DNA from: an uncultured Gammaproteobacteria bacterium
GTDB taxonomy: Bacteria > Patescibacteriota > Microgenomatia > UBA12405
Length of the DNA: 57,877 bases
Assembly: GCA_964442385.1 (NCBI GenBank)
Contig: CAYTYZ010000006.1
Location: 1 to 57,877 of the forward strand
Direction: 5' to 3'
The position numbers and the translations under genes are program-made. This document shows positions 4,933 to 23,992 of this stretch, one piece after another (the first letter of the stretch is position 1; each line of letters begins with the position of its first letter). The notes beneath the pieces were generated by a model, which saw only the letters and a program-made list of their open reading frames with translations, did not search any database and was not told where the DNA came from.

Positions 4933-4934
4933 AT

Positions 4935-9357: not shown

Positions 9358-9371
9358 CCAAGTATATCAAT

Positions 9372-9932
9372 ATGTTATTCTTGGCTATGCACTCAGCCTT
9401 GGTTATTATCGATATGCAACAAGATTTCTTTAAAAAAGACGAGCTGACAGTGCAAAAAGACTTCCTAATTAAAAATATAAACCAACTTGTAGCCCATTTT
9501 AGGGACAAATCTCTTCCCATAATTTGGCTTCGCCAAACCATGAAAGCTGATCTGTCTGACGCTCCTCTTGGTCCCAAAAATACTGGTACAGCTTTCGTAG
9601 TTGAGGGTACCCCTGGCAGCCAGCTTTTGCCTGGTTTGGACTTTTTATCTTCAGATATTGAAATTATTAAAAAGCGTTACAGCGGTTTTTACCAGACCAA
9701 CCTTGAGGATACTTTAAAGAGTTTGAGCGTAGACACCTTGGTGGTATCTGGCATAAACTCTCACGCCTGTGTCAGGGTTACCGTAGTCGATGCCTATCAA
9801 AGAGATTTCGATGTAATTGTTGCCCAAGACTGCGTTGCTTCCTGGGACCCTCCCCACCACGCCATCACCATGAAATACTTTGTCCCCACCATAGCCAAAG
9901 TAATGACCAATTCAGAGATTCTAAGCTTGTGA
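9372..9932 (+). CDS. Isochorismatase-family cysteine hydrolase (nicotinamidase-like)
   Basis: ALVIIDMQQDFF, KKRYSGFYQTNLEDTLK and LVVSGINSHACVRVTVVDA (catalytic Cys). Confidence 0.8.
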   Translation: MLFLAMHSALVIIDMQQDFFKKDELTVQKDFLIKNINQLVAHFRDKSLPIIWLRQTMKADLSDAPLGPKNTGTAFVVEGTPGSQLLPGLDFLSSDIEIIKKRYSGFYQTNLEDTLKSLSVDTLVVSGINSHACVRVTVVDAYQRDFDVIVAQDCVASWDPPHHAITMKYFVPTIAKVMTNSEILSL

Positions 9933-9946
9933 TAATACCTATAATA

Positions 9947-9975
9947 TTGACTTTATATCACTTTTCAAGTATACT
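9947..9975 (+). promoter_or_regulatory. Sigma70-type promoter for the serpin-like gene
   Basis: TTGACT (9947-9952), a 17-nt spacer, then TATACT (9970-9975). This implies a leader of roughly 215 nt. Confidence 0.5.
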
Positions 9976-10015
9976 TAACCATTACACATCAAGTGTAAGC
10001 ATTCAAATACAGGTT

Positions 10016-10117
10016 GGATATTGCATCTAACTTTTGTTTCTGTCCTTTTAAAAATAGATACTTCAATATTTTGCATCTACTGGTTGGTGGCTATTTGGAC
10101 ATAATATTTTGTATCTA
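10016..10117 (+). repeat. Three imperfect direct repeats AATATT(TT)G(C/T)ATCTA in the leader
   Basis: Copies end at 10029, 10079 and 10117. GGTTGG precedes copies 1 and 3. A 9-bp inverted repeat, TGGCTATTT (10088-10096) with AAATAGCCA (10118-10126), brackets copy 3. Confidence 0.55.
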
Positions 10118-10197
10118 AATAGCCATCAATCAAAGTTAATGCAAAAGTAGATTACTTTGATGACCACACTGGTCATGGCAATACACAAGGAGAAAAC

Positions 10198-11076
10198 ATG
10201 AGCTCATCACTAGGTTTGTTAACAATCGCCAGAGCCATGATTGAGGCTGAAGGTCTTCTTGGTGGCCAATGCACTTGGAAAGCCACCAACCCAACTCAAA
10301 AGGAACTACTTTCCCGTTTGACCGTTTTGCGGCAAGCGGTGACCAAAGTACCCACCCTACAGGGCTGGGCTAAAAAAACAGCCGAAGAACTAAATCAAAT
10401 TCTGCGCGAGAATGGCCTGAGCATTCAGCTTCGACCGTGGCTTCCAGGCTCCGGCTTCGGCGTCGTGGCCATCAACAAGTACGGCGTACAGTGGCTTTCA
10501 CCGGGTCTCACCTCGCTTTTTGAGGGCGGCCCCAGGCTGGAGGTTCTAGGACACCCAGCTTTTCTTCTCAAGAGCAGTACCGCCAGAGTCAAAATCTGGG
10601 AGACCAAAAGCAGGAAACTGATCGTCAAGGTCCCAACTAAATCCGGCGACACGCTTTGCCTCAGTATGGAAGACAGGCCTCTCACAGGCTTTGGGCTGCA
10701 TGAGTACGTTGAAAGTTTGCAAGCAGAGCAGGTCAAATCCTTCTATGGTTACGAAGGAGCTATTCTTCCAATGGTCAAGCATGGGCTTCCCGTAGATTTG
10801 GATTGGCTTCGTTTTATGGAAGTCTACTCCTCAGTTGACGGTAACTGGTTCATTAGCCAGGCTCTGCAGGAAATTCAGTTCTCCATGAATCAGTTTGGTG
10901 CAGCAGTCACAGAGGCAGCAGCCATGTCCTTTGCCAGGGGGATGCCCCAGTACCTAGAGGTCAACAAACCTTTTGTTCTTTGGATTGAGCGTCCTGGTGT
11001 GGAAATTCCCCTTAATGTTTTCCATATCACTCCAGAGGACTGGAAAGATCCTGGTAATCTTGCCAAAAGTATGTAG
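10198..11076 (+). CDS. Compact serpin-like protein (292 aa)
   Basis: The C-terminus LEVNKPFVLWI fits the PROSITE serpin signature as I recall it. A hinge-like FGAAVTEAAAMS lies upstream. AINKYGVQW resembles NAIYFKG.W, and VKVPTKSGDTLCLSM resembles LPY.g.lSM. AAGGAG RBS. G+C is visibly above the flanks. Confidence 0.6.
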   Translation: MSSSLGLLTIARAMIEAEGLLGGQCTWKATNPTQKELLSRLTVLRQAVTKVPTLQGWAKKTAEELNQILRENGLSIQLRPWLPGSGFGVVAINKYGVQWLSPGLTSLFEGGPRLEVLGHPAFLLKSSTARVKIWETKSRKLIVKVPTKSGDTLCLSMEDRPLTGFGLHEYVESLQAEQVKSFYGYEGAILPMVKHGLPVDLDWLRFMEVYSSVDGNWFISQALQEIQFSMNQFGAAVTEAAAMSFARGMPQYLEVNKPFVLWIERPGVEIPLNVFHITPEDWKDPGNLAKSM

Positions 11077-11091
11077 TTTGAAGTAGTCTTC

Positions 11092-11129
11092 TCCGCCGGG
11101 TAGCCCAAAGGGCAACGGCGGATTTTTTT
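11092..11129 (+). terminator. Rho-independent terminator
   Basis: CCGCCG (11093-11098) pairs with CGGCGG (11116-11121), with an inner GCCC-aaa-GGGC stem and then T7 (11123-11129). Confidence 0.8.
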
Positions 11130-11130
11130 A

Positions 11131-11616
11131 TTACTTTTCTTCGCTTACTTCCATTTCTGGAATCTCGACTCGTGCTTCTGGCATAGACTCAGCTTCTGCC
11201 TTAACTTCCTTTTTTTCTTTCTTTTTCTTGGGAGCAGGAGCAACAGCTGTGTCTCCTGACAAAAGTGAAATGAGTTTGTCTAATTTAGCGTTAAGTTCAT
11301 TAAATTGGCGTCCATAATCTGGTTGGTCATAGTTTCTAGTTTCCACTCTTGGCCTGGATGAAAAGGACCTTTCCCCTCCAAAGCTTCTATTTTCGCCTTG
11401 TGGTGCTCCGCCCCCTTCTTTTTCAAAACAGTTACTACAATACACTGGTTTTCTACCATTTGGCCGAAAAGGCAGCTCACAAGGTCGTCCACATTTATCA
11501 CAGGTGGCCGAATACATTTTTCTTTCTTCACCGCCCCCTCCACCTCCAAAGTCCCGTCTTGGACCTCCAAAACTTCTATTTCCACCACTAAAGCCACCAC
11601 GATTATTGTTATACAT
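11131..11616 (-). CDS. CxxC-x17-CxxC domain protein with Gly/Arg-rich N-terminus and Lys/Glu-rich tail
   Basis: Start refined to MYNNNRGGFSGGNRSFGG. The core is CDKCGRPCELPFRPNGRKPVYCSNC (CxxC, 17 residues, CxxC). Confidence 0.75.
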   Translation of the reverse strand: MYNNNRGGFSGGNRSFGGPRRDFGGGGGGEERKMYSATCDKCGRPCELPFRPNGRKPVYCSNCFEKEGGGAPQGENRSFGGERSFSSRPRVETRNYDQPDYGRQFNELNAKLDKLISLLSGDTAVAPAPKKKKEKKEVKAEAESMPEARVEIPEMEVSEEK

Positions 11617-11705
11617 ATTTAAGTATAATACACTAAATATTGGCAATAGTATGGGCAAGTTATATGTCCCGATATCAACAGAAAACATTTTAGGTAGAAT
11701 TAGTC

Positions 11706-12863
11706 ATGTTTGACAGTCTTACTATTGACAACTCCAAGCATAAACTCCAAATTCCTGATTTTAATCCAGAAAATATCACAGGCTACATAAACGAGCCTGT
11801 CCACTATCTCAACGACCCTGAACCGAATATGGTTGCAAGTAGGTTTGGCAATATCATGTATCGTCTGGGTCAACTAACCAAGCTTTCTGCCCATTTTCGT
11901 ACACCCTTTGATCGATCTAAAGCCCAAGAATTGCTCAGTCAAATAAAAGACCACCGCGTACGATCTGATTCGCATAGTCATCTTTACAAAGAGTTGAAAG
12001 AGCGTGGCAAAATAGCAAAAAAATATTTACAGCAGGGATCAGTTTGTGTTTACATGGGTACTTTGGGGATACAAAAATCACCACTTGTGATTATACCTCC
12101 CCCAAGAGTTGACCCAAGGTTCAGCGCTCGTCCAGTAGTTTTGATACCTGGTATCAGTAACGGATTGGCTGGAATAGAAACCCTCATTAAAGAATTTGCC
12201 TACCAGGGGAGAATTGTAATTGCTCTAGGCCAGCCCGAAAGTTTTATGGGTAGTGTGACACCAAGTTTTGCTCAGGCTGTCGAAGAATCTAGTCAACTTT
12301 CCCCACATATAGAATTTTACAAGAGAGCCATCGCTCTTACTTTGCAAGAACGTTTTGGAAACAAAGTTAAAATCGATTTGGTAGGTCATTCTACTGGTTG
12401 CCCTATGATTGCTGGTCTACTTGCCGACAAACACTACCAAGACATATGTGCCAATGTATGCTTAGTCTCTCCGGCAGCCGTTGCCGAACAGTCGGTCCTG
12501 TCGTTTGATTTAGCAACTATCCCAGAAATATATTATTTATTAGTTAGACATGGCGCTTTGGCCAACTTTAATAGAAATGATCAGCCTCAGGAACCAGTTA
12601 AAGCTCGAGCTACCCAAGGGGTAAAGCGCAACATTATCCATTTTTTACAAGGTCTTTACAAAAATGCCCATTTGTCTAACCATAGGCGAATTTCAGTAAT
12701 TTCTTGCGATGATGATCATATTGTAAAAAGCAGACAAGCCCAAGATGCTCTTGCCAAACTAAATCCCGATATTGATTTTATTCCGCTCAGTAGGGCTACT
12801 CATGCCGAAGCTTTAATAAACCCACAGAGAGTCGTAACGCTAATACAATCTATTCTAAAATAA
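11706..12863 (+). CDS. Alpha/beta-hydrolase-fold protein
   Basis: Nucleophile elbow DLVGHSTGCPM and a late THAEALINP histidine; 385 aa. Confidence 0.6.
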   Translation: MFDSLTIDNSKHKLQIPDFNPENITGYINEPVHYLNDPEPNMVASRFGNIMYRLGQLTKLSAHFRTPFDRSKAQELLSQIKDHRVRSDSHSHLYKELKERGKIAKKYLQQGSVCVYMGTLGIQKSPLVIIPPPRVDPRFSARPVVLIPGISNGLAGIETLIKEFAYQGRIVIALGQPESFMGSVTPSFAQAVEESSQLSPHIEFYKRAIALTLQERFGNKVKIDLVGHSTGCPMIAGLLADKHYQDICANVCLVSPAAVAEQSVLSFDLATIPEIYYLLVRHGALANFNRNDQPQEPVKARATQGVKRNIIHFLQGLYKNAHLSNHRRISVISCDDDHIVKSRQAQDALAKLNPDIDFIPLSRATHAEALINPQRVVTLIQSILK

Positions 12864-13374
12864 CTCCCAAGCCATATAGTAAACTCATGGCACCAGGAAG
12901 TGAGAATTTGGCCCCCTTAATAGTAGCTGACCTAACATCAATAAAATAATTTTTTGCACCAAGCAGATTTGCTTTGGTTAAATTAGTCTTGGCAAACACA
13001 GTTTTTTCAAAATCACTATTCTGCAGTTGTGATTCGCTTAAATTGGCCTCCGTAAAATCACATTCTTTTGCCATACATTCCCTAATCACAATTTTAGGTA
13101 GCGACAATAGTCTAAAATTTGAATAACTAAGTTCGCAATTTTTAAAAACCAAGTTTTCTACTTTAGCTGCCCTAGTCCAATCCATTCCCATTATATTGCA
13201 GTCAATAAACTCCACATCCACAAACTGGCTATCACTAATATCCACTGCACTTAAAATACACCCTTTAAATTGACAGTTCACAAACCTACACTTAATAAAC
13301 TTGCACTGACTATATTTACAATCCAAAAACCTTTCTTCCTCAAACTCCTTTTTTGAAAATATTTTTCCCACCAT
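12850..13374 (-). CDS. Pentapeptide-repeat protein
   Basis: Continuous A(D/N)LxX-type repeats (CKFIKCRFVNCQFKGCILSAVDISDSQFVDVEF..ANLSESQLQNSDFEKTVFAKTNLTKANL). Confidence 0.8.
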   Translation of the reverse strand: MVGKIFSKKEFEEERFLDCKYSQCKFIKCRFVNCQFKGCILSAVDISDSQFVDVEFIDCNIMGMDWTRAAKVENLVFKNCELSYSNFRLLSLPKIVIRECMAKECDFTEANLSESQLQNSDFEKTVFAKTNLTKANLLGAKNYFIDVRSATIKGAKFSLPGAMSLLYGLGVILE

Positions 13375-13541
13375 ACTACTATTTTACTCTGCTAAACTAA
13401 CCAATAATCACCATAACCAAACCTATCACCATAGACCTCGTCCATATTAAACAAATTCTTAGTCAGTGGACAGAGCCCATTGAAGTTGATAAGTATATTT
13501 CAAGAATAGAAAACGAGATTCATGGACATACTGAATTTAAT

Positions 13542-13886
13542 ATGCATTTTTGGGTAGCCAAACAAGATGACACTGTTATTGGCATAGTTGGTCTATCCAA
13601 TCCATTGCCCAAAGTACTTTCTTTTACCAAAACCTTTCTTCCAGGGGAACTAAAAATTCTTTATGTTGATACTAGTCATCAGGGCAGGGGAGTAGGCGGA
13701 CTATTGGTAAATTTTATTGAACAAGAGGCTATGTACCATGGCTATACCGAGTTATTGGTTCGAAGTGCCCAAAGATACCAAGATACGGCTTTTGGTTTTT
13801 ACAAGAAAAAAAACTACACCGATTTGGGTACAATCGATGGCGATGATAATAAAAAGTCCATGCAAGTTTTTCAAAAAATCCTCTAA
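13542..13886 (+). CDS. GNAT N-acetyltransferase with an unresolved N-terminus
   Basis: HQGRGVGGLLVNFIEQEA is the acetyl-CoA loop. The frame is open back to 13401 and encodes a plausible GNAT N-terminus (ITIDLVHIKQILSQW..), but no ATG, GTG or TTG occurs there. Confidence 0.65.
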   Translation: MHFWVAKQDDTVIGIVGLSNPLPKVLSFTKTFLPGELKILYVDTSHQGRGVGGLLVNFIEQEAMYHGYTELLVRSAQRYQDTAFGFYKKKNYTDLGTIDGDDNKKSMQVFQKIL

Positions 13887-13906
13887 AAATATGCTAAAGT
13901 ATTTTT

Positions 13907-14374
13907 ATGGATAAAATAAAAAAAACCAGCCCAACCCCAGCTAAGTCTAACAATTTTGCAAGAAATTTTCTGATTGGTTTATTAGGTGTTGCCGCCTATT
14001 TTGCCATCCAATATTTTTTCACTAACCAGTCCAACCAAGCCAAATTTAACCAAACCAGTACCAAGTTTGACCAGCTCTCAGAATCAATTTCTCAAAAAAA
14101 CGAACAGCTTTTTAATCTAAAAAACAAAGATGCCAAAACACTTTTGCCAGCGGTACAAAGCCTTCAGTCTGATTACGTGCAAATGCAAACCCTTCTGGGT
14201 GGTCTTAATAAAACACCTGAAACTAGTGCTGATTTTGCTATGACCGGCAAGGCCATTGAAGCCCTAAAAGCTATCGAAAAAGGTATTTTGGACAACAACA
14301 AAACTCTAAAAGACAAAGGCTTTTTGCTTCTTGATAGCCTACTTGCACCTGTAACTCCATCTCCAAAAAACTAA
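13907..14374 (+). CDS. Membrane-anchored hypothetical protein
   Basis: 155-aa ORF with one TM (FLIGLLGVAAYFAIQYFF) and a helical Gln-rich ectodomain. Confidence 0.5.
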   Translation: MDKIKKTSPTPAKSNNFARNFLIGLLGVAAYFAIQYFFTNQSNQAKFNQTSTKFDQLSESISQKNEQLFNLKNKDAKTLLPAVQSLQSDYVQMQTLLGGLNKTPETSADFAMTGKAIEALKAIEKGILDNNKTLKDKGFLLLDSLLAPVTPSPKN

Positions 14375-14381
14375 CAATAAA

Positions 14382-14885
14382 ATGGTAAAACCATTCCCAC
14401 CCATGGCTATATTTAAACCAGGGGTGTTATCTGTGACAGTTTTTAGTGAAATTAATTATTTTCTAATTGTTATCTATTCGGCAATCTTAATTAACATCCA
14501 AGATATATCAAAAATTAATATAAATTCATTTTACTTACTATTTATTTTATTAATTGTTTTGTCACTTGTGTCCGCGTTTATATCAACGAAAATAGTAATA
14601 ACTGGACCAAAACTAACATCCTTCAGCCCAATTAGCTCCGGTCACGAATTTAATATTAATCAACCTTTTGAGGTTGAAGCTCGTAGAAGGAGATGGAACA
14701 CAGAAGGGAACATCACTATTTTCCCCACTTACTCATATATTGATTTTTACTTGTCTTCAGATATCGCCCATAGGTCGAACCAGCATATCTCTCTTGGGTT
14801 AGGGTGGAGTAAAAATGATGTTATCAAATTATTTACATATCTTCAGAATAATTATCCAAATATTAAGCAACTATACTTTCCATAA
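14382..14885 (+). CDS. Hypothetical membrane protein
   Basis: 167-aa ORF with two or three N-terminal TM segments. Its stop overlaps the next gene's start (TAATG). Confidence 0.45.
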   Translation: MVKPFPPMAIFKPGVLSVTVFSEINYFLIVIYSAILINIQDISKININSFYLLFILLIVLSLVSAFISTKIVITGPKLTSFSPISSGHEFNINQPFEVEARRRRWNTEGNITIFPTYSYIDFYLSSDIAHRSNQHISLGLGWSKNDVIKLFTYLQNNYPNIKQLYFP

Positions 14886-15418
14886 TGAAAACTACAAGCC
14901 CCTTTAAAACCACCTGGGTGACTTCGGACAAAGTTAATCCTAGTGAGCAACATGTTCCTGTCACGCAAGTTTATTGTTGGATTATTTCAAAGGATGGACA
15001 AGTATGCATAGTTTCCAAAGACAATCAGTCCTGGCAACTGCCTGGAGGTCACCCTTTGCCAGGTGAAAATATAAGCCAAACAGTAGTACGTGAAGTGGCA
15101 GAAGAAGCAGGACTAGATTTATCCCACAGTCAGAACGATATTCAGCTCTTTGGCTATAATAATGTCAAAAAACTATCAGACACTGGAACAGTTATCGACC
15201 ATTTTTTACAGCTTAGAACGTATTGTTTTATTGACAAATTGGCCAAGGATTACATACTCTTACCCCAAGAAAAACCAACCGAAAAAATTGAATATAGAAT
15301 CATTTCTGCTAAATTTGTCACGATGGAAAAATTGCTTGAACTAATACCATGGCTATCTACCAGTCCAGAGTATAACGCCATAAAAAAAGCCCCTATCGGT
15401 GATTTTCATCACCTCTAG
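14885..15418 (+). CDS. Nudix hydrolase
   Basis: Nudix box GGHPLPGENISQTVVREVAEEAGL. Confidence 0.8.
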   Translation: MKTTSPFKTTWVTSDKVNPSEQHVPVTQVYCWIISKDGQVCIVSKDNQSWQLPGGHPLPGENISQTVVREVAEEAGLDLSHSQNDIQLFGYNNVKKLSDTGTVIDHFLQLRTYCFIDKLAKDYILLPQEKPTEKIEYRIISAKFVTMEKLLELIPWLSTSPEYNAIKKAPIGDFHHL

Positions 15419-15453
15419 GGGCCTGCGTTGCGGAAAGAACTTTCAGAAAAAGT

Positions 15454-16062
15454 CTAGTTTGGTAAACTGACAGCAGCAGCCACCCTATCTAGGGTGATGA
15501 CTCCATCGTTACAAAGTTTGTCAAGCAATTGAAGGTTTGGCAAATGCGCGTCACATGCGCCGATTTTTACCTGAATTCGGTCGGGCTCATGTACACGATA
15601 ATCAAGTAGCGCACCATTTGCAACTTTATCGAACATTTGGATAATTCTTTGACCCGAAGCCTTGCATTGCACGAAAGCGGCAATGTTATTAAGATATATA
15701 TGCCCCATCCTATCACGATCACGGGTTCCACAGACAAAGCAAGTACAAGAATCCAAACCTATGCCTCGGGACCAAAAGAATTCGCCACCCCCTTCGGGTT
15801 GTTTATCTGGTTTACCATGAGAATCAATTCCCTCGCGAGGGTGTTTTTGAAGTTCAGGATAAAAGCTGCCAAATCCGATGGCTGACTTCTTAACGTCATC
15901 AGCCAGAACAGCAAAGCTAACTTCGCATTCACCACAGGATACTATTGCTGTACCTCCCCCTGATATTGGCGAGTAGCCAGATCGATAGCCACAATTGGGG
16001 CATCCCCACTTTTGGTACTCATTCGCTGCGACAGCAATTGGTTGTTTGATGCCATCAGTCAT
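15454..16062 (-). CDS. Cys-rich zinc-ribbon protein of unknown function
   Basis: Start refined to MTDGIKQP, with AAGGAAG 6 nt upstream. It contains CPNC-x20-CGEC, then CTCFVC, plus further Cys and His (QCK, GACDAH, LCND). It overlaps the upstream paralog by 8 nt, so they form an operon. Confidence 0.6.
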   Translation of the reverse strand: MTDGIKQPIAVAANEYQKWGCPNCGYRSGYSPISGGGTAIVSCGECEVSFAVLADDVKKSAIGFGSFYPELQKHPREGIDSHGKPDKQPEGGGEFFWSRGIGLDSCTCFVCGTRDRDRMGHIYLNNIAAFVQCKASGQRIIQMFDKVANGALLDYRVHEPDRIQVKIGACDAHLPNLQLLDKLCNDGVITLDRVAAAVSLPN

Positions 16063-16417
16063 TTTGTTCTTCCTTCTTTGGTTTGTCACCAAACTTCATT
16101 TGCTCGTCGTTTACCTCTTTAAGAAAGAGGTGAGCTTCGCTGGCAATATCCTTGTCGTCGACCAGGGCATCAACGATCTGTGGAATACACAAATATAGAA
16201 CTGAAAAGGTATCCAGGCCATAGTCAGTCGTGTTTGAAAATTCGTTGATTATGACAATCAATTGCCTGACTAGGCTATACGCACTCATTTTCTGACCTGC
16301 CAATTTGACAAGAGCCTGATTAAAAGGCCCTGCCACTCTCTCATCCAAACCTAACTGCGCCGTTTCCATTCGTGCAACAATCTCTTTCGCACTCGGAAGT
16401 TTGACGGTCTTATCCAT
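16055..16417 (-). CDS. Small helical protein, paralog 1 of 3
   Basis: 120 aa with an AAGGAG RBS. It shares GLDE(R/Q)V..FNQ.L..LA.Q and LCIPQI(V/I)DALVDDK with the next gene. Confidence 0.65.
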   Translation of the reverse strand: MDKTVKLPSAKEIVARMETAQLGLDERVAGPFNQALVKLAGQKMSAYSLVRQLIVIINEFSNTTDYGLDTFSVLYLCIPQIVDALVDDKDIASEAHLFLKEVNDEQMKFGDKPKKEEQND

Positions 16418-16434
16418 GTCTTTCTCCTTCTTGG

Positions 16435-16779
16435 TTAGTTTTTGGTTTTTGACATTGAAGCAAGTACTTCTTCGTAATAGCGCTTGGCTTCCTCGACAAC
16501 ACCTTTGTCGTCGACCAAAGCGTCAATAATCTGTGGAATGCAGAGCAATAGGACTTCATAGAAGTTAGGGCCATAATCACCTGTTTTTGTAAATCTGTAG
16601 ATCACCACACCCAGTAGTATGACCAAGCTCTGCCCACTGACTGCCTGGTCAGCCAATCCGATAAGACACTGATTAAAGAGCCGTCCCACTTGCTCATCCA
16701 ACCCAATCTGCATTTTCTCCAGCCGGGTTTGAAACTTTTCCCCGGCAGGAAGTCTGGTATAAAACCTTGGGTTACTCAT
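16435..16779 (-). CDS. Small helical protein, paralog 2 of 3
   Basis: 114 aa with an AGGAG RBS; colinear with 16055..16417. Confidence 0.65.
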   Translation of the reverse strand: MSNPRFYTRLPAGEKFQTRLEKMQIGLDEQVGRLFNQCLIGLADQAVSGQSLVILLGVVIYRFTKTGDYGPNFYEVLLLCIPQIIDALVDDKGVVEEAKRYYEEVLASMSKTKN

Positions 16780-16816
16780 ATTTTTGCTCCTTTTTTTGGT
16801 TTACGCCGTTTTTTTT

Positions 16817-17158
16817 CTACGAATAAACTGCTTGTGTGCGAATCATCTTTCCATAAAATTCCTTGGCTTCTGTGGCAATATCTTCGTTTTCCACCAGAAT
16901 ACCGATAATAAAGGTAACTTTTGTACTCAAGAATGCATCCATATCACGTGGATATCCACCACTTTTCACAAATTTGGAAATTGCATCAAGAATCACCCCA
17001 ACCATATGCTTCCGATAAATCGAACCCCGGGTAACTTTGTAAATAAACCCAAAGAGGTCTTCGTTCGAGAACCGCTCGGACAGAGGTGGGGTATTTGCAA
17101 CTAGACGCATTGCCTCGTCTATATTCCGAAGCACCACAAACTCAACTTGCTTGCTCAC
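16817..17158 (-). CDS. Small helical protein, divergent paralog 3 of 3
   Basis: Start refined to GTG 17158..17156, with AAGGAG 6 nt upstream. The C-terminal IIGILVENEDIATEAKEFY aligns with DALVDDKDIASEAHLFL and DALVDDKGVVEEAKRYY in the other two. Confidence 0.55.
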   Translation of the reverse strand: MSKQVEFVVLRNIDEAMRLVANTPPLSERFSNEDLFGFIYKVTRGSIYRKHMVGVILDAISKFVKSGGYPRDMDAFLSTKVTFIIGILVENEDIATEAKEFYGKMIRTQAVYS

Positions 17159-17349
17159 GTTGTTCTCCTTCTTACTTTTTTTCTTGTTTTCTAACCGAAT
17201 GGTTAGCACACTAAGCAAAAAAATTTGCCCAGAATGCTAACCATTGATTTTATAAGAAGATATGTTTTCCGCAACTTTTTAAAGAGCACTATTTACAAGT
17301 TTTAAATTTACCCACAGCAATTGTGGATTATTTAATTCTTGAATACATA

Positions 17350-17384
17350 AGTATATCAAAAAACATATATTTTGCAATATTATA
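17350..17384 (-). promoter_or_regulatory. Promoter for the three-paralog / zinc-ribbon operon
   Basis: On the minus strand: TTGCAA (17377-17372), a 16-nt spacer, then TATACT (17355-17350). An alternative TATAAT lies at 17384-17379. Either way the leader is about 185 nt. Confidence 0.45.
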
Positions 17385-17416
17385 GGTAAAATGCAGTGGT
17401 GCACTTAGTTCTCTAT

Positions 17417-18682
17417 CTAATCTACTAGACAAATACCCAACTCTCGGTTGGTTTTCAGTATGTTTCGGTTGGTTTTATCTAGCTCCAGTTTCTTTCTCAA
17501 CCTTGATACAAACTTATCAAAAGCCCAGTCAGTAGGATATTCGTCTTTACCCCAAACATTCTCCATAATTTCTTCGCGACTAAAAACTTTATTTGGGCTA
17601 TCCGACATAAAAGTTAATAGTCGATACTCTCTCTTTGACAATAGATTGTTAATTAATTTACCTAAAAAGAACAGCTGTTCATTTTCCTTGTCATACACAA
17701 ATGGAGCAATACTTTGCTTGCCAGATTTTAAATAGGTGTCTAGAAGTGGTGAAAAAACTTTGATTTTGTTATCGATCACAGATTGAAAACCTAATTTAAT
17801 TAATAGCTCATCTTTTTGGTTTGTTTTTAGTTTGGCTATTTGCAAGTCAGTCAAGCTACTTAATATTCTTTGACATTGAAACATTATCTCCTCCTCGTTA
17901 CATAGATTTGTTATTTTTTTTGCATAATTTGTCTGTGACACTTTTGATAATGTTTGAACACAAAATTTAATCAATCCTGCATGTCCTCCACAAAGTTCAA
18001 TAATCTTATTCTTTTCTTTATCTGTCAAGTTAACCTGATATCTGTGGCAATTTCTTTGCAGTACCCACCCGGCCTGGTCTTCAGAAAATGGCGTCATAAA
18101 AACCATTTTCTGAAAGAAAAAAGTCACCGGCTCAAAAGGCCTAACTCCTCCAAAAATAAATACCAAAGAAAATCTGGCCGCGTTTCTTAGAGCTATTAAT
18201 TGGTGGTAAACCAGATCCAAATCCATTTTTCTAGCTTGGTCAAAATTATTAAAAAGAAACACAATTATTTTTCCGGTCTTGTTTGCCACATTGGCCAGAT
18301 CTTCTTTTAGAGATTTTAAAAGAATATTAGGCTGGTCTATAAATATTTGGTTTAAATAAGTACTCTCCAATCCTAGTTTTGTAGCTTCTTCCATCAAGCT
18401 AGCACTTATTAAGTGGTACAAGCTAGGCAGGGTAAACGATCCCAGTTCATTTAAATCTACTAATACAAACATATATTTATCCGCCTCAGCCCCTAAATAT
18501 TTTGTTTGCACATCTGCACGTCTTGAAATATATCTCATTACGTTTATCTTGCAGTTATCCTTCATGCCGATAAACGAAAAAGATTCGCTTCTTTTTAATA
18601 AGTCAAAAATATCTCCAACCACATCTTGCCGGTAATCTAGGGGAAAATTATCCTCCAGCACCAGGTGTTTATCCAGTTCCAT
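17417..18682 (-). CDS. Transcriptional regulator with an N-terminal STAND/AAA-like NTPase fold (degenerate Walker A) and a C-terminal OmpR/PhoB-type winged helix
   Basis: The C-terminus LSKREYRLLTFMSDSPNKVFSREEIMENVWGKDEYPTDWAFDKFVSRLRKKL matches trans_reg_C. In the N-terminal part, FSFIGMKDNCKINV sits where GxxGxGKT is expected, IIVFLFNNFDQA is Walker-B-like, and LCGGHAGLIKF is STAND-like. Confidence 0.65.
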   Translation of the reverse strand: MELDKHLVLEDNFPLDYRQDVVGDIFDLLKRSESFSFIGMKDNCKINVMRYISRRADVQTKYLGAEADKYMFVLVDLNELGSFTLPSLYHLISASLMEEATKLGLESTYLNQIFIDQPNILLKSLKEDLANVANKTGKIIVFLFNNFDQARKMDLDLVYHQLIALRNAARFSLVFIFGGVRPFEPVTFFFQKMVFMTPFSEDQAGWVLQRNCHRYQVNLTDKEKNKIIELCGGHAGLIKFCVQTLSKVSQTNYAKKITNLCNEEEIMFQCQRILSSLTDLQIAKLKTNQKDELLIKLGFQSVIDNKIKVFSPLLDTYLKSGKQSIAPFVYDKENEQLFFLGKLINNLLSKREYRLLTFMSDSPNKVFSREEIMENVWGKDEYPTDWAFDKFVSRLRKKLELDKTNRNILKTNRELGICLVD

Positions 18683-18690
18683 ACTATCAA

Positions 18691-18727
18691 ATTATATCAT
18701 TTGTCAGCCTGTGTCAGCTTGGTGACA
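18691..18727. promoter_or_regulatory. Divergent control region with phased direct repeats TGTCAGC and the regulator's own -10 box
   Basis: TGTCAGC occurs at 18702-18708 and 18712-18718, exactly 10 bp apart. GTCA-gcttgg-TGAC follows as an inverted repeat. On the minus strand TATAAT (18696-18691) lies 8 nt before ATG 18682, so the mRNA is near-leaderless, and the repeats overlap the -35 region. Confidence 0.45.
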
Positions 18728-18782
18728 AGCACAACCACTTTTTTAGACGTATTCTCAGCTGGTTAGTCATTATTTTCTTTAT

Positions 18783-19958
18783 ATGTACGAAAAAATTGAT
18801 ACCCTGCCTGTTACAAAGGAATACTATGGTGATACTAGGGCCGAAGATTCCTGGGTTGATCCAGTTCGTAATCAAACCGTTAGTACGATGAGCGAAGAAT
18901 TTTCTCGGAGGTCGTTGGAGATAATTCAAGAACTTTGTAGACGAAAAGGTGTGACAAATCCCCAGGGATTCATTTTAAATACTTCCCACCAAAGTGCACC
19001 ATATTCATATAGCAGAGCCTCCTTTCAGCTGGAATGCCAGGATGAAGGCAAAGAGAAGCCTATTCTGATAATCAGAAAATCAAGAGATAATCGCAAGCCA
19101 CAGTATGACCCCCAAGAGTCAAAGTGGGTAAACGAAAATGATCTTCTGCCTAGAAGCGAAGTTATTGTCAGAAAATTAGGTTATTGGAACGAAGACAAAG
19201 CTAAAAAAGGAGATTTGTATGATACATCTCTTTTAGTTTCCACTGTTAAAAGTCTCGACGCGCTCAAACCTGTTGATAAAAGAAAACTGATTCGTGGAAT
19301 TGAAAAAACCCAATTTCTTTGGCTAGAGAAAGAAATTTCAAGCGAAGAAAAATGGCAATCCTATTATCAAAATGCCTCGCATAGAAAAGATGTTGACCAG
19401 TGCAGACTTTTGGTAATTTTGTTAAATGCAAAAACATACCAGAAACACGGACGTTGGCAAGGGCATGACGATGCACTTGCAAGACAAGGCACCTGGGATA
19501 TACCGGCCCAACCTGCTCTTGAAATAAAAACTGAAGAATATCTACTTGGGGCAATAAATGAGTTATTACTACAGGGCCACAAGCAGTGGGATGAAGTCGC
19601 TTGGTTTGCAGTTCAAACCCTTGGTAACACAGGAGGGGCAAGGGCTTTACCTGCTATGTTTGACTACTTAAAAACCATTACTGAACCTGATGATCAAGTC
19701 ACGATTCTAAAAGCGCTAGCCAAAATTGGCTCGCCAAGAGTTGGAAAATACCTTATTGCCAATCTAAAAGGTGACAAAAGTTTTGTCAATTTTTGGCAAA
19801 AATCTAGAATAGTTACCGACTTGATAAAAGCCTCACCCCATCAAGAAGGAGCCAAAAAAGCCTACAAGAATCTTCTTGCATTCGTCGATCAGCTAAAAGG
19901 AGATAGCAAGTCCTCAAATGCTATGTTCTTAGCCGATAGTTTAAAAAATATTTATTAA
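18783..19958 (+). CDS. Family-A protein, copy 1: unknown N-terminal domain plus C-terminal HEAT/PBS-lyase-like repeats
   Basis: 391 aa. The C-terminus AVQTLGNTGGARALPAMFDYLKT..ILKALAKIGSPRVGKYLI is HEAT-like. It is colinear with the next gene. Confidence 0.6.
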   Translation: MYEKIDTLPVTKEYYGDTRAEDSWVDPVRNQTVSTMSEEFSRRSLEIIQELCRRKGVTNPQGFILNTSHQSAPYSYSRASFQLECQDEGKEKPILIIRKSRDNRKPQYDPQESKWVNENDLLPRSEVIVRKLGYWNEDKAKKGDLYDTSLLVSTVKSLDALKPVDKRKLIRGIEKTQFLWLEKEISSEEKWQSYYQNASHRKDVDQCRLLVILLNAKTYQKHGRWQGHDDALARQGTWDIPAQPALEIKTEEYLLGAINELLLQGHKQWDEVAWFAVQTLGNTGGARALPAMFDYLKTITEPDDQVTILKALAKIGSPRVGKYLIANLKGDKSFVNFWQKSRIVTDLIKASPHQEGAKKAYKNLLAFVDQLKGDSKSSNAMFLADSLKNIY

Positions 19959-19959
19959 T

Positions 19960-21123
19960 ATGACCAATTACAAAGAATTTCCAACTCTAAAAGTTACCAG
20001 TTCTAGCTATCAGGATTCTAGGGCAGAGGATTCCTGGATAGATCCGAATCGCAATGAAAAAGTAACTACTATTAGCGACCTGTTTGAACCCAGAGCTATA
20101 GAAATAATCAAAGAACTATGCATACGTAAAGGTGTTGTTAACCCACAGGAATTTACACTACACACCTCTAGTCGCTCTGCGCCATATTCCTTCAGCAGAT
20201 CAACCTTTTTATTAAAATGTATCGACGAAAATATTCCTTCTCCCATAGTAATTGTAAAAAAAGAAACCGACAATCGATATCCTGACCCCGACCCCAGAGA
20301 GGAGTATTGGGTCAATGAAAATGATTTACTGCCCAGAAGTGAGCTTAAAGTTCGAAAACTTGGTTTTTTTAATGAAATCAAAGCTCAAAAGGAAGCCGGA
20401 GAGCTACTACGAGCCTCAAAACTAATCAAAACTATAAATGAGCGACCGGGGCTTAGCAAAGATGAAAAACAATTTATCGTTGAGGAAGTAGAACACTGGC
20501 AAGGGACATGGCTGGTGGATGGAGTAAAAAGTGAAAGTCATTGGCAGTGGTGTTATCAAAATGCTTTGTACAGAAAAGACTACCACCAGTGCGGCTTGTT
20601 AATAAAAGTGCTAATACACAACAAAATCAACCATGGGTCAGACAAAAAAAGTGCCTGGGCAAGTCCCAATATTTCCAGAAAAGGGACTTGTGACATTCCT
20701 GCCCAGGCGATAATTGCTGATAAAACCCAAGCATGGCTACAGGAGGCTGTTAAAAAGAGTTTATCTGGGCTTTCAGAATGGAAGGATCTGTCGTATCAAG
20801 CTATCCAAGCCCTGGGTCATCTTGGCAACGCTAGTGCCTTGCCTGTTATTTTTGATTATCTAAAAACAGCGCCCATGGGGTCTCGCGAACAAGATAAGGC
20901 CCATCGAGCTTTAGCCAGAATAGGATCACCCAGGGTATATAGATATTTTATCAACTATTTTCAATCTGAAGATAAAGCTAAGACAGAGCACTCTAAGTTC
21001 ATAGTTAGAGAGTTACTAGACGATATGATCGAAAATGATCCAAAGCAACCCGGTGCTAAAAAAGCAATACTTGAATTCAAAAAATATGCCAAAAAGCACA
21101 ATTTAAGATATTTAGGGAAATGA
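19960..21123 (+). CDS. Family-A protein, copy 2 (tandem paralog)
   Basis: 387 aa. Shared with copy 1: Y.D.RAEDSW(V/I)DP.RN, II.ELC.RKGV.NPQ.F, SAPYS(Y/F)SR, WVNENDLLPRSE, DIPAQ, ALP..FDYLKT and IGSPRV. Confidence 0.6.
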   Translation: MTNYKEFPTLKVTSSSYQDSRAEDSWIDPNRNEKVTTISDLFEPRAIEIIKELCIRKGVVNPQEFTLHTSSRSAPYSFSRSTFLLKCIDENIPSPIVIVKKETDNRYPDPDPREEYWVNENDLLPRSELKVRKLGFFNEIKAQKEAGELLRASKLIKTINERPGLSKDEKQFIVEEVEHWQGTWLVDGVKSESHWQWCYQNALYRKDYHQCGLLIKVLIHNKINHGSDKKSAWASPNISRKGTCDIPAQAIIADKTQAWLQEAVKKSLSGLSEWKDLSYQAIQALGHLGNASALPVIFDYLKTAPMGSREQDKAHRALARIGSPRVYRYFINYFQSEDKAKTEHSKFIVRELLDDMIENDPKQPGAKKAILEFKKYAKKHNLRYLGK

Positions 21124-21153
21124 CCAATCTGTTATCTATTTATTTCTTTTGCT

Positions 21154-22065
21154 ATGTCCAAAGAACAATTAAAACCAACCCAAGAACAGCCTGAAGTTAT
21201 CCAAGTTAGATCTGAAAAAAAGAGGGGTATTCACTACCCCACCAAAGCCGAAATTTCTGCTGGTTTTCAGTCCATTTGCGATCAGTATGGCCTAAAGCCT
21301 GATGACTATTTACCAGAAATTGCAAAAATTACCCAGAGAAGATTGGAAATCAGAGAAAAGGAAAGTCCCAAAGATAAAACCATGAATAGTTACATAAAAG
21401 CCAGCATAAAGCCGTTTGAACATTATTGGACAAGTATTTGTTTTGAAGCGAAATTAGATCCTAAGTATCCTGCTTGGCTAGCCAGAGCTGTCACGGGATA
21501 TCCCGTCCATAGGCTAAAGCTAGACCTTGGAATGCATTTTAATAACCAATTTTCAAAGACTCAAAGATACCTTTGGTTTATAAATAATGCTGCTTGGTGG
21601 CTAACTGCAGGTGACATCCCAGCAAGTATTGCCTTGGAAGAATGCGATTTTAGAGCAATACAACGCGGCCAACCACCTCTTTATGAAAACTGGATAAGAA
21701 CTACCATTCCATTAGTTCATGATAAGGATTTACCACCAGAGGTAGGAGCTCTCACAGCCAAATTCGTTCAGAACGAAGTTGTTAGCACCATAAGGAATAT
21801 TCATTATCACTGGGGATTTGCTTTGGGCATGATCCCAGATCTTGAGCAAAGATATCCACGAACTAGCCGAAACAAGGGACCTACTAGTTTTCTTGGATAT
21901 AAAGAACCAGGTGCCCTTCCTGGCTCTACATTTTTTGAAAGCATTAGCTTTCACAAAATTGCTCTTAGGGTTACAGTAAATCAAGTTCCTGCCACCAAAT
22001 ACGAAGAGTCCGATAGCGCCAATTTCGCTAGATTGGCCAATATTAGTTATGGCGAAGACTTTTAA
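21154..22065 (+). CDS. Family-B protein, copy 1 (unknown function)
   Basis: 303 aa. Shares IHYPTKAEISAGFQ..CDQYG, NAAWWLT.GD, PLYENWI, NKGPTSF and VPATK with the next gene. Confidence 0.6.
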   Translation: MSKEQLKPTQEQPEVIQVRSEKKRGIHYPTKAEISAGFQSICDQYGLKPDDYLPEIAKITQRRLEIREKESPKDKTMNSYIKASIKPFEHYWTSICFEAKLDPKYPAWLARAVTGYPVHRLKLDLGMHFNNQFSKTQRYLWFINNAAWWLTAGDIPASIALEECDFRAIQRGQPPLYENWIRTTIPLVHDKDLPPEVGALTAKFVQNEVVSTIRNIHYHWGFALGMIPDLEQRYPRTSRNKGPTSFLGYKEPGALPGSTFFESISFHKIALRVTVNQVPATKYEESDSANFARLANISYGEDF

Positions 22066-22076
22066 TCTATTCAATT

Positions 22077-23006
22077 ATGACCAAAGAACAACTAAATCCA
22101 TTATCAGAAAAACCAGCCGATATACAATCCAGAGCTGAAAAAAAGCCTGTTATACACTATCCCACCAAGGCTGAAATTTCTGCTGGTTTTCAAACTGTTT
22201 GCGATCAATACGGACCTTGGTTGGACGAGTTAAAAAAGAGCTTGTCTGCACGTATTTTAAAACAGTCAGACAAACTTAGTAAAAAAGTACCCGAAGGTGA
22301 ATTACCAGAGAAAGATAAAAATTATTATATTGAAAGCAAGATTAGCCGGTATGCAAAGACTTGGAAAGAAATGGATTTCGATAAAGATCTTGACCCAGGG
22401 TTTCCTACTTATCTAGCCAGGGCCACCACAGGGTTTTACCTTGAGGTATTACGACATGATCTACGCGGGGGAGACTTTTTTGAGGGAGCATTTGATCAAA
22501 CTCAAAAATATGTCTGTTATTTGCACAATGCTGCTTGGTGGCTAACTAATGGAGATCTGGAAACCAGCTATGCCTTGGTTAACTGCGACGCTCACGCTAG
22601 AAAAACTGGCCACCAGCCATTATATGAAAATTGGATAAAAACAATTACTCCCATACCTCTTGTAGACAAATTACATCCTGACGTTGTATCTATTACCAAG
22701 CGGTTTATTCAAAACGAAATTTATCGAAGAATCTGGAAAATCCAATTATACTGGGAAGAAGCCTGGGGTATCATACCTCTACTAGAATCTACACTAAAAA
22801 GACCACCTGGTATCAACAAGGGGCCCACTAGCTTTGCCACTTATGCCACCCCTAGTGGCTATTATAATCTTAGTTTCTACGACGAAATAAATTTTGCCAA
22901 ATTTGCTCTCAGAATTATGTCAAATAATGTCCCAGCGACCAAACTCCAGGAGCTAGAAAACCGTGAGTCATCCAGACTAGGAAATTATAGTGATATATAT
23001 GGATGA
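22077..23006 (+). CDS. Family-B protein, copy 2 (tandem paralog)
   Basis: 309 aa. Two DNA runs are identical to copy 1: a 20-mer gaaatttctgctggttttca (21250-21269 and 22173-22192) and a 21-mer aatgctgcttggtggctaact (21586-21606 and 22527-22547). Confidence 0.6.
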   Translation: MTKEQLNPLSEKPADIQSRAEKKPVIHYPTKAEISAGFQTVCDQYGPWLDELKKSLSARILKQSDKLSKKVPEGELPEKDKNYYIESKISRYAKTWKEMDFDKDLDPGFPTYLARATTGFYLEVLRHDLRGGDFFEGAFDQTQKYVCYLHNAAWWLTNGDLETSYALVNCDAHARKTGHQPLYENWIKTITPIPLVDKLHPDVVSITKRFIQNEIYRRIWKIQLYWEEAWGIIPLLESTLKRPPGINKGPTSFATYATPSGYYNLSFYDEINFAKFALRIMSNNVPATKLQELENRESSRLGNYSDIYG

Positions 23007-23041
23007 CTTTTAAATCCCCAAATTAATCGCTATTATAATTA

Positions 23042-23989
23042 ATGCACGAACGAATTATTTTCCTGGCTTTGTCAGTTTTTCTACTCTCTGCCCAGGGGGT
23101 CCAGGCTACCACTCTAATTAGACAAAATGGCACTGTTACTTCAGTTGCCGGAGTAGTTTTAGGTGATGAAGTCACTCCCACTCCAGAAGTTGATGAATAT
23201 TGGAAGCGACCTTCACCCGTAGTCGACGATCATTGGAATCGTCCTTCACCAGCCGTTGATGACTATAAGAATAGACCTACCTGGTATCCCGGAGCCACCA
23301 GGCCTCCAACCTGGACACCTATTTCTCGTCCGCCAACTTGGTCACCAGAGCACGAGCCTAGCCGTTATCCTACCAGATCCCCAGAACCAAGCAGAAAGCC
23401 AGAGCTTCACATTACCCCTTGGCTAACCAGGCCACCTACCCCCACCAAAAGCCTTACCCCAAAGCCCACCAGAACTATAGATGAATACCGTGAATTATAT
23501 TTAAAAATTCGTGATAGTAAAGGCAAGGAAACGATCGTCGATAAAAAAGACGATGTAGTAGTCGAAACCAAGAAAGATAATTTTCGTCTTAAAGAAAATA
23601 TTGAAAGCCAAACTATAGAAATGACCAAAGGTGAGGATAAGCTTGATATTACTCTTCCCGTTATAATCAATTCTGACACCAAGCAAGTATCTGTTGGCAC
23701 CAGTTCTGGCAAGGAAGTAGAAATTAAAGCAGAGCTTCGCGATGCAATTGAAAAAACCTTAGAGCACCTTGATCTTCAAGACACAATTCCACCCCAAGAA
23801 GTTGGCACTTCCATTGTAGAGGATGACGGTAAGGTGGTTTACAAACTTGAAACCCAAAAACGCCAAAAACTCTTTGGATTTTTACCAGTAAAAGTTGAAG
23901 AAACTACTACTCTTGATGCTGAAAGTGGCGAGTTAGTTAAAACAGAAAAAAGTTTTGCCAATAGAATTCTTGATTTCTTTTCTTTCTAG
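23042..23989 (+). CDS. Secreted Pro/Trp-rich repeat protein
   Basis: Signal peptide MHERIIFLALSVFLLSAQGVQA. Three tandem 11-aa repeats (VDEYWKRPSPV / VDDHWNRPSPA / VDDYKNRPTW) are followed by RPPTW(T/S)P repeats and a charged C-terminal domain. Confidence 0.6.
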   Translation: MHERIIFLALSVFLLSAQGVQATTLIRQNGTVTSVAGVVLGDEVTPTPEVDEYWKRPSPVVDDHWNRPSPAVDDYKNRPTWYPGATRPPTWTPISRPPTWSPEHEPSRYPTRSPEPSRKPELHITPWLTRPPTPTKSLTPKPTRTIDEYRELYLKIRDSKGKETIVDKKDDVVVETKKDNFRLKENIESQTIEMTKGEDKLDITLPVIINSDTKQVSVGTSSGKEVEIKAELRDAIEKTLEHLDLQDTIPPQEVGTSIVEDDGKVVYKLETQKRQKLFGFLPVKVEETTTLDAESGELVKTEKSFANRILDFFSF

Positions 23990-23992
23990 ATC

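What the first reader, a model, noticed from the sequence alone, without database searches (positions are those of the whole stretch)
18783..23006. Duplicated gene pairs A-A'-B-B' with patches of perfectly conserved DNA
Two roughly 390-aa proteins have an unknown N-terminal domain plus HEAT-like repeats. They are followed by two roughly 305-aa proteins of unknown fold, and each pair is colinear along its full length. Despite substantial overall divergence, B and B' retain identical 20- and 21-nt runs (21250-21269 = 22173-22192, and 21586-21606 = 22527-22547). These encode EISAGFQ and NAAWWLT. This points to strong constraint or to gene conversion at particular motifs. Retention of both copies of both families suggests heteromeric or specificity-diversified partners.
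Basis: seen in the sequence. Interest (0 to 1): 0.62.

Follow-up and report, generated by a model that had tools for sequence, protein, structure and literature searches.

The report
Orphan tandem gene pairs with micro-conversion
Four neighbouring genes in a very small bacterial genome are two old tandem duplicates of two protein families seen nowhere else, and one pair is still exchanging short stretches of DNA; the evolutionary process is ordinary and the function is unknown.

Summary
A (18783-19958) and A' (19960-21123) are 45% identical. B (21154-22065) and B' (22077-23006) are 44% identical. Both pairs are colinear. The 20-nt and 21-nt identical runs are exact and maximal.

Synonymous sites are saturated in A/A' and nearly so in B/B', and dN is well below dS. 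These are old, selected duplicates.

The two B/B' runs are longer than conserved protein plus codon bias predicts (P=2e-4 under a codon-usage null; P=0.014 under a stricter permutation). A/A' shows no excess. Other equally conserved B motifs do carry synonymous changes.

A B allele from a related strain in a metagenome differs from the window only in 21270-21292. Five of its seven changes copy B', which extends the identity to 38 nt. That is the signature of a short gene-conversion tract.

Neither family has a detectable homologue outside this genome in any search run, including 60 relatives, two of them in the same genus. The one exception is a generic HEAT-repeat segment in A/A'. Structure prediction failed for B and showed only HEAT repeats for A.

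Function and A-B partnership remain untested. The finding is of modest interest.

The parts
18783..19958 (+). A: 391-aa soluble, basic protein. It has an orphan N-terminal region of about 260 aa (small alpha+beta unit followed by helices) and a C-terminal PBS-type HEAT repeat segment.
   Evidence: ORF; Pfam HEAT_2 at residues 270-332; AF2 pLDDT 59; Foldseek returns only alphaRep/HEAT hits; no TM segment, pI 8.9
19960..21123 (+). A': 387-aa paralogue of A (45% aa identity). It starts 1 nt after the stop codon of A.
   Evidence: pS 0.76 (saturated), pN 0.38
21154..22065 (+). B: 303-aa soluble protein, predicted all-helical, with no recognisable family.
   Evidence: AF2 pLDDT 41.7; Foldseek gives nothing
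22077..23006 (+). B': 309-aa paralogue of B (44% aa identity). It starts 11 nt after the stop codon of B.
   Evidence: dS about 1.5-2.7, dN about 0.5
21136..21290 (+). 5' module of B: 18 nt of leader plus codons 1-46. It is 74% identical in DNA to 22059-22213 of B', against 54% for the rest of the gene, and has an excess of identical synonymous codons.
   Evidence: the repeat finder family D1; same codon at 21/32 sites versus 42/96 in the rest, Fisher P=0.026
21250..21269 (+). Identical run 1 (20 nt, EISAGF+CA) = 22173-22192. In the sister-strain allele the identity to B' extends to 21287 (38 nt).
22173..22192 (+). Copy of identical run 1 in B'.
21586..21606 (+). Identical run 2 (21 nt, NAAWWLT) = 22527-22547.
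22527..22547 (+). Copy of identical run 2 in B'.
18683..18782 (.). 100-bp divergent intergenic region with TGTCAGC at 18702 and 18712 (10-bp spacing). It is the candidate operator and promoter for A-A'-B-B'.
   Evidence: The motif count across the whole window is not above chance; only the adjacency of the two copies is notable.
17417..18682 (-). Divergent regulator (context): 421 aa with a C-terminal OmpR/PhoB-type winged helix. It is the only gene tested from this locus with a homologue in a relative (E=1.8e-123; 53% identity by the genome search, 49% by tblastn; same-genus genome G002). The zinc-ribbon gene (15454-16092) and the secreted-protein gene (23042-23989) were not searched in relatives.
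   Evidence: Pfam Trans_reg_C E=3e-17
23042..23989 (+). Downstream signal-peptide, Pro-rich protein (context). It starts 35 nt after B' and ends 3 nt before the acetyl-CoA synthetase gene, so it may be in the same transcript.
   Evidence: no terminator-like site at any gene junction between A and the acetyl-CoA synthetase gene

Best explanation
A-A'-B-B' is a co-directional, tightly packed set of four genes. They encode soluble cytoplasmic proteins from two lineage-restricted (orphan) families.

The set arose by two separate single-gene tandem duplications, A to A+A' and B to B+B'. Both pairs are old: synonymous sites are saturated or nearly so. Both are kept by purifying selection.

In B/B' only, short-tract gene conversion still operates. 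This is non-reciprocal homologous recombination between the neighbouring copies. It is seeded in the blocks where protein constraint keeps the DNA similar enough. It erases synonymous differences in the 5' module (leader plus codons 1-46) and at the NAAWWLT block, which produces the 20- and 21-nt identical runs.

What is shown:
- paralogy;
- selection;
- run lengths above expectation;
- a conversion-like allele in a related strain.

What is inferred:
- that A/A' are HEAT-repeat adaptors that bind B/B', possibly through the conserved and probably disordered N-terminus of B;
- that the set is transcribed from the divergent promoter under the adjacent OmpR-type regulator.

The biochemical function is not known.
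For: - Paralogy and colinearity.
- Age and selection: A/A' pS 0.76 (saturated), pN 0.38. B/B' dS 1.5-2.7, dN 0.5, omega about 0.2-0.3.
- Run lengths: B/B' P(second run >=20)=2e-4 under the codon-usage null and 0.014 under the stratified permutation. A/A' shows no excess.
- Same-codon use at identical residues: 63/128 in B/B' against 53 expected (z=1.9), and 67/163 in A/A' against 63.5 expected.
- Other conserved B motifs do carry synonymous changes.
- The 5' module has 75% nt identity and 21/32 identical codons, against 54% and 42/96 elsewhere.
- Sister-strain allele (L005, JGI 3300045333): 284 nt collinear with 21050-21333. All 7 substitutions fall within 21270-21292, and 5 of them equal B'. 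This gives a 38-nt identity of that B allele with B'. The chance estimate is about 2e-5.
- The phenomenon recurs in this genome. Of the 13 tandem paralogue pairs tested, out of about 28 found, others also show runs longer than expected. Examples are 34 nt in a C10 aminotransferase-like pair and 18 nt in the C6 32968/34795 pair.
- Codon usage and GC of all four genes are typical of the genome, so they are long-term residents.
- Orphan status.
Against: - The conservative permutation gives only P=0.12 for the single longest run.
- ATT-TCT-GCT-GGT are preferred codons, and the same 12-mer encodes ISAG in two unrelated genes. Codon bias therefore contributes.
- The sister-strain allele comes from the end of a contig that is itself chimeric; the rest is a foreign type IV pilus operon.
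- There is no evidence at all for A-B binding, for operon structure or for control by the regulator. The G002 counterpart of the regulator has unrelated neighbours.
Confidence: 0.6

Rival explanations
1. There is no gene conversion. The identical runs arise by chance where invariant residues happen to be encoded by the genome's preferred codons in both copies.
For: The stratified permutation gives P(max)=0.12. The ISAG 12-mer recurs in two unrelated genes. Both runs sit in the longest identical amino-acid blocks. Overall same-codon excess is only z=1.9.
Against: Two runs of 20 nt or more occur together with P=2e-4 (codon-usage null) or 0.014 (permutation). Other invariant motifs show synonymous differences. 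The sister allele has a clustered B'-like patch next to run 1. A/A' has the same protein identity but no long run.
Confidence: 0.2
2. The identical patches are kept by selection on the nucleic acid itself. Candidates are an RNA structure, an sRNA or protein binding site, an uptake or Chi-like sequence, or a constraint on 5' mRNA for translation without a Shine-Dalgarno sequence.
For: The 5' module includes the untranslated leader. None of the four genes has a Shine-Dalgarno sequence, so the 5' coding sequence may matter for initiation.
Against: No 8-mer within the runs is over-represented in the genome; observed/expected ratios are 0.9-1.2. No Rfam match reaches a gathering score anywhere in the window. 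Run 2 lies mid-gene, at codon 145. No repeat or complementary partner was found in the locus.
Confidence: 0.07
3. The locus is a diversifying conflict module, either an immunity/antitoxin-like array or an anti-phage or host-interaction system. In this reading the paralogues are specificity variants, and conversion shuffles recognition segments.
For: The families are orphan and lineage-specific, sit in a variable 16-kb chromosome stretch and are duplicated in tandem. The small-paralogue family tested next to them is equally orphan. A' has a weak PADLOC HEAT-ARM hit, E=2.5e-5.
Against: No toxin, nuclease, secretion or known defence domain is present in or near the locus. The PADLOC hit covers only the generic HEAT segment. 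There are no mobile-element genes, and composition is native. Conversion here homogenises conserved blocks rather than shuffling variable ones.
Confidence: 0.13

Closest known systems
CpcE/CpcF (and NblB) PBS-lyase HEAT-repeat proteins of cyanobacteria
   Same: A/A' carry PBS-type HEAT repeats (Pfam HEAT_2/HEAT_PBS). The CpcE/F complex 5n3u appears among the Foldseek hits (rank 21). From general knowledge, CpcE and CpcF are adjacent paralogous genes whose products form a heterodimer, which gives a precedent for A/A' acting as a pair.
   Different: Only about 65 of 390 residues match. The NblB model scores 13 bits against a 300-bit cut-off. The N-terminal 260 aa are orphan. The genome has no phycobiliprotein gene.
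Tandem paralogue clusters shaped by recombination at conserved blocks, such as the Staphylococcus aureus lpl cluster (Tsuru & Kobayashi 2008, PMC2568036)
   Same: Tandem paralogues carry a highly conserved nucleotide block that serves as a recombination site. The conserved unit includes intergenic DNA plus the 5' end of the next ORF, as in the B/B' 5' module (paper abstract).
   Different: That case involves many lipoprotein copies on a genomic island, compared across more than ten genomes. Here there are two copies, cytoplasmic proteins, one genome plus one allele fragment, and tracts of tens of bases.
Gene conversion between anciently diverged paralogues, RF1/RF2 (Ishikawa et al. 2015, PMC4530459)
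   Same: Conversion acts between old, functionally retained paralogues and is confined to the region with shared function.
   Different: In RF1/RF2 a whole domain is converted, the events were detected phylogenetically, and the genes are not tandem.

Membership tests
Tandem paralogues undergoing gene conversion | Two homologous copies in the same genome | tested here: met
   BLASTP E=3e-101 (A/A') and 9e-85 (B/B')
Tandem paralogues undergoing gene conversion | Identity tracts longer than expected from overall (silent-site) divergence | tested here: met
   B/B': P=2e-4 and 0.014 for two runs of 20 nt or more. A/A': not met (P=0.48-0.70).
Tandem paralogues undergoing gene conversion | Donor-recipient pattern in an independent allele or lineage | tested here: inconclusive
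   In L005, 5 of 7 clustered substitutions equal B'. However, there is only one fragment, from a chimeric contig end, and reads were not available.
PBS-lyase HEAT proteins (CpcE/CpcF/NblB) | Full-length match to the family model | tested here: not met
   NblB NF045915 scores 13.3 bits against a 300 cut-off. The HEAT match is limited to residues 270-335.
PBS-lyase HEAT proteins (CpcE/CpcF/NblB) | Phycobiliprotein substrate encoded in the genome | tested here: not met
   PF00502 gives no hit in G000, while the control hits Synechococcus.
Known anti-phage defence systems (PADLOC) | Match of the component proteins to system models | tested here: not met
   Only A' matches HEAT-ARM_XIII, at E=2.5e-5 over the HEAT segment. 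A, B, B' and the neighbouring genes give none.
Polymorphic toxin / immunity arrays | Adjacent toxin or trafficking domain gene | tested here: not met
   The Pfam and NCBIfam scans, which covered most but not all ORFs between about 1.2 kb and 35 kb of the window, show housekeeping or unknown genes only.
   No homologue exists elsewhere, so co-occurrence cannot be scored.

The most novel reading that the evidence does not exclude
A/A' and B/B' form a previously undescribed 2+2 heteromeric machine. HEAT-repeat adaptors would hold an all-helical partner. The machine would be specific to one lineage of ultra-small bacteria and controlled by the adjacent ATPase-like/OmpR-type regulator. It would serve host interaction or conflict. 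Micro-conversion would keep the shared docking segments (the B N-terminus and NAAWWLT) identical while the remainder diversifies.
Probability: 0.12. Interest if true: 0.55.

Novelty: new member of a known kind. Interest (0 to 1): 0.3.

Why it matters
The locus is a clean, small example of how short-tract gene conversion leaves identity islands inside otherwise saturated tandem paralogues. It comes from a reduced genome of about 1.1 Mb, where recombination between paralogues has rarely been documented.

It also flags two protein families that are absent from every collection searched, which together hold billions of predicted proteins. Despite this, both families are clearly selected and were duplicated in a genome under strong size reduction. 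That makes them reasonable targets for structure and function work.

The finding does not open a long-standing question. The evolutionary process is well known and the function remains unassigned.

Tried and rejected
- **Family scans.** Pfam, NCBIfam, PADLOC and PHROGs scans of the four proteins and their neighbours gave only HEAT_2/HEAT_PBS for A/A' and Trans_reg_C for the regulator.
- **PDB sequence searches.** The only borderline hit was an alphavirus-type capsid protein at E=0.057, driven by a Lys-rich low-complexity stretch; I rejected it.
- **Homologue searches.**
  - Word-indexed searches of 5.8 billion proteins returned only the window's own paralogues for A and B. The A profile added three generic HEAT-repeat proteins covering 15-21% of the query.
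  - Full HMMER of the B profile against 1.84 billion representatives gave only two fragments of B and B' and one spurious repeat protein.
  - Six-frame searches covered 60 relatives and 400 genomes of the phylum for the A N-terminal region.
  - Metagenome, genome and viral contig scans found nothing. B was also searched against plasmid and phage records without a match.
- **Structure.** The B model was unusable (pLDDT 41.7), and Foldseek gave no match better than E=0.7, with TM-scores below 0.2. The A model returned only alphaRep/HEAT hits.
- **Relatedness between families.** hhalign of A against B, and of each against the small-paralogue family, showed no relationship. There are no internal repeats.
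- **Chi or uptake-sequence idea.** K-mers within the runs are not over-represented.
- **Regulator plus tandem-paralogue architecture in relatives.** No such pattern was found.
- **Recent horizontal transfer.** No signal in codon usage or GC.
- **Organism name.** A scan with the acetyl-CoA synthetase protein for a named close relative found only a 37%-identical Latescibacterota gene.
Full report
**What is there**

The window is contig C6 of a 1.14-Mb, 36-contig genome that is 92% complete. Genomes of its family, order and phylum are all 0.5-1.6 Mb. This fits an ultra-small, Patescibacteria-like bacterium.

Four co-directional ORFs lie at the stated coordinates:

| Gene | Coordinates | Length |
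|---|---|---|
| A | 18783-19958 | 391 aa |
| A' | 19960-21123 | 387 aa |
| B | 21154-22065 | 303 aa |
| B' | 22077-23006 | 309 aa |

The spacers between them are 1, 30 and 11 nt. A/A' are 45% identical (E=3e-101). B/B' are 44% identical (E=9e-85). Both pairs are colinear.

The 20-nt run (21250-21269 = 22173-22192) and the 21-nt run (21586-21606 = 22527-22547) are exact, maximal and in frame. They encode EISAGF(Q) and NAAWWLT.

**The proteins**

- A and A' match only Pfam HEAT_2/HEAT_PBS, over about 65 residues near the C-terminus. They are the only HEAT_2 hits in the genome.
- The AF2 model of A (pLDDT 59) shows a small alpha+beta unit at residues 42-98 followed by helical repeats. Foldseek returns only alphaRep/HEAT proteins, with CpcE/F at rank 21.
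- B and B' match nothing in Pfam, NCBIfam, PADLOC, PHROGs or PDB.
- The AF2 model of B is all-helical but unreliable (pLDDT 41.7). Its fold search is accordingly empty.
- All four proteins are hydrophilic and basic (pI 7.7-9.0), with no hydrophobic segment and no internal repeats.
- A and B are unrelated to each other and to the three small paralogues upstream.

**Distribution**

- Word-indexed searches of 5.8 billion proteins found only the window's own copies, plus HEAT-only partial hits for the A profile.
- A full HMMER search with the B profile over 1.84 billion representatives found only two short fragments of B and B' and one spurious repeat protein.
- Each of the four proteins is a singleton among about 15 billion sequences.
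- Six-frame searches found no A or B in 60 relatives, including two genomes of the same genus. The A N-terminal region was not found in 400 genomes of the phylum.
- Metagenome, genome and viral contig scans found nothing. B also had no match in plasmid or phage records.

Codon usage, GC and GC3 of the four genes are typical of the genome. Pfam scans of 30 ORFs spread over 1.2-35 kb of the window show housekeeping enzymes or no family match, with no mobile-element genes.

In the same-genus genome G002, the acetyl-CoA synthetase orthologue abuts orthologues of window 3154-7889. Window 7901-23989 is therefore a variable stretch.

The divergent regulator (17417-18682, OmpR-type winged helix) does have a G002 counterpart (53% identity; 49% by tblastn). 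Its neighbours there are unrelated. The three small helical paralogues upstream (16055-17218) are likewise absent from the 60 relatives.

**Age and selection**

- A/A': pS is 0.76, which is saturated, and pN is 0.38.
- B/B': dS is about 1.5-2.7 and dN about 0.5, so omega is about 0.2-0.3.

Both pairs are old duplicates under purifying selection, so these are real genes.

The order A-A'-B-B' is not what one block duplication of A-B would give; that would produce A-B-A'-B'. Two single-gene tandem duplications are the simplest history. Their nearly equal protein divergence (pN 0.376 and 0.368) is compatible with linked fates, but this is inference.

**Are the identical runs more than chance?**

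I used two null models.

1. Codons were redrawn independently from genome codon usage, keeping both protein sequences. A/A' behaves as expected: 67 identical codons against 63.5 expected, and a maximum run of 12 (P=0.48). B/B' has 63 identical codons against 53 expected (z=1.9), P(max >=21)=0.02 and P(second >=20)=2e-4.
2. Observed codon pairs were shuffled within each amino-acid class. This stricter test gives P(max)=0.12 and P(second)=0.014 for B/B'.

The excess is real but moderate.

Within B/B', other invariant motifs (PLYENWI, NKGPTSF, VPATK, and the first half of IHYPTKAEISAGFQ) do carry synonymous differences. Protein constraint alone therefore does not explain identical DNA.

Codon preference does contribute. 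ATTTCTGCTGGT also encodes ISAG in two unrelated genes.

The 5' end of B/B' stands out as a whole. A 155-nt module comprising 18 nt of leader and codons 1-46 is 74% identical. Codons 1-46 have 75% nt identity and 21/32 identical codons, against 54% and 42/96 in the rest (Fisher P=0.026).

No k-mer in the runs is over-represented in the genome. This argues against a Chi- or uptake-type signal.

**Direct evidence for conversion**

The B-like fragment P0006 lies at the end of a JGI metagenome contig (3300045333, locus L005). Its first 284 nt are collinear with window 21050-21333. The remainder of the contig is a type IV pilus operon from a different organism, only about 70% identical to the G000 pilus genes. 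The contig end is therefore chimeric.

Within B codons 1-60, all seven substitutions fall in 21270-21292, immediately after run 1. Five of them (21270, 21271, 21273, 21274, 21285) equal the B' base. That B allele is therefore identical to B' over 38 nt, 21250-21287. The chance estimate is about 2e-5.

This is the footprint of a short conversion tract between B and B' in one of the two strains.

The second fragment (P0005, locus L006, JGI 3300045377) carries 335 nt that are 100% identical to B', inside an unrelated AT-rich contig. It shows only that this B' sequence is present in that sample's assembly.

**Context in the genome**

The genome has about 28 tandem paralogue pairs. The same test was applied to 13 of them. 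Others also show runs longer than expected:

- a C10 aminotransferase-like pair with a 34-nt run (P about 0);
- a C13 pair with runs of 25, 24 and 20 nt;
- the C6 32968/34795 pair with an 18-nt run (P=0.007).

Micro-conversion, or strong codon fixation at invariant motifs, is therefore a general feature of tandem paralogues here and not a peculiarity of B/B'.

**Mechanism proposed**

Purifying selection on invariant peptide blocks keeps the DNA of the two copies similar enough to seed homologous recombination. Short non-reciprocal tracts then erase silent differences around these blocks. This in turn keeps them recombination-competent. The process is known from tandem paralogue clusters such as S. 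aureus lpl (PMC2568036) and from old paralogues such as RF1/RF2 (PMC4530459).

The functional reading is inference only. It holds that A/A' are HEAT-repeat adaptors binding B/B', perhaps via the conserved, low-confidence N-terminus of B, and that the set is expressed from the divergent promoter with two TGTCAGC repeats 10 bp apart. None of the four genes has a Shine-Dalgarno sequence. No terminator-like site lies at a gene junction within the set.

**Verdict**

The evolutionary process is a known kind, while the two protein families are orphans of unknown function. Interest is modest.

Noticed in passing
L005:1-300 (JGI 3300045333) versus window 21050-21333: The 284-nt fragment (A' 3' end, leader, B codons 1-60) is joined in frame to the 3' part of a pilN/pilO-like gene, at the end of an 11.6-kb contig from a different organism. 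This is probably a chimeric contig end.
   Followed up: partly
L006:1151-1486 (JGI 3300045377) versus window 22323-22657: 335 nt that are 100% identical to B' sit inside a 1.6-kb AT-rich contig. The contig also holds a tmRNA-like gene (about 490-825) and ends in a 115-nt tail with no G. It looks like an assembly or library chimera.
   Followed up: partly
window 21058-21084: Relative to the L005 allele, two compensating 1-nt indels occur in A6 runs 21 nt apart. They change five residues near the A' C-terminus (AILEF versus QYLNS). This could be true variation or a homopolymer error in one of the assemblies.
   Followed up: no
genome contig C10:13006-15535: Tandem PLP-dependent aminotransferase-like paralogues (46% aa identity) share a 34-nt identical run, far longer than expected (P about 0 in 3000 simulations). 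It probably lies at the invariant block KLILVDGVYSMSGDY, but the run was not located.
   Followed up: partly
window 18743-18782, 19920-19959, 21114-21153, 22037-22076, 23953-23992: None of A, A', B, B' or the acetyl-CoA synthetase gene has a Shine-Dalgarno-like motif in the 40 nt upstream. All the leaders are AT-rich.
   Followed up: no
window 7901-23989: In same-genus genome G002, the acetyl-CoA synthetase orthologue lies directly beside orthologues of window 3154-7889, in inverted orientation. The 16 kb between them in this window is therefore a rearranged, variable stretch.
   Followed up: partly
window 16055-17218 (minus strand): The three small helical paralogues upstream of the regulator are also absent from all 60 relatives searched. 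Of the locus genes tested (A, A', B, B', the three small paralogues and the regulator), only the regulator has a homologue in relatives. The zinc-ribbon gene (15454-16092) and the secreted-protein gene (23042-23989) were not searched.
   Followed up: partly
window 18702-18718: TGTCAGC occurs twice with 10-bp spacing in the 100-bp divergent intergenic region. This is a plausible OmpR-family direct-repeat operator. The motif count across the whole window is not above chance.
   Followed up: partly
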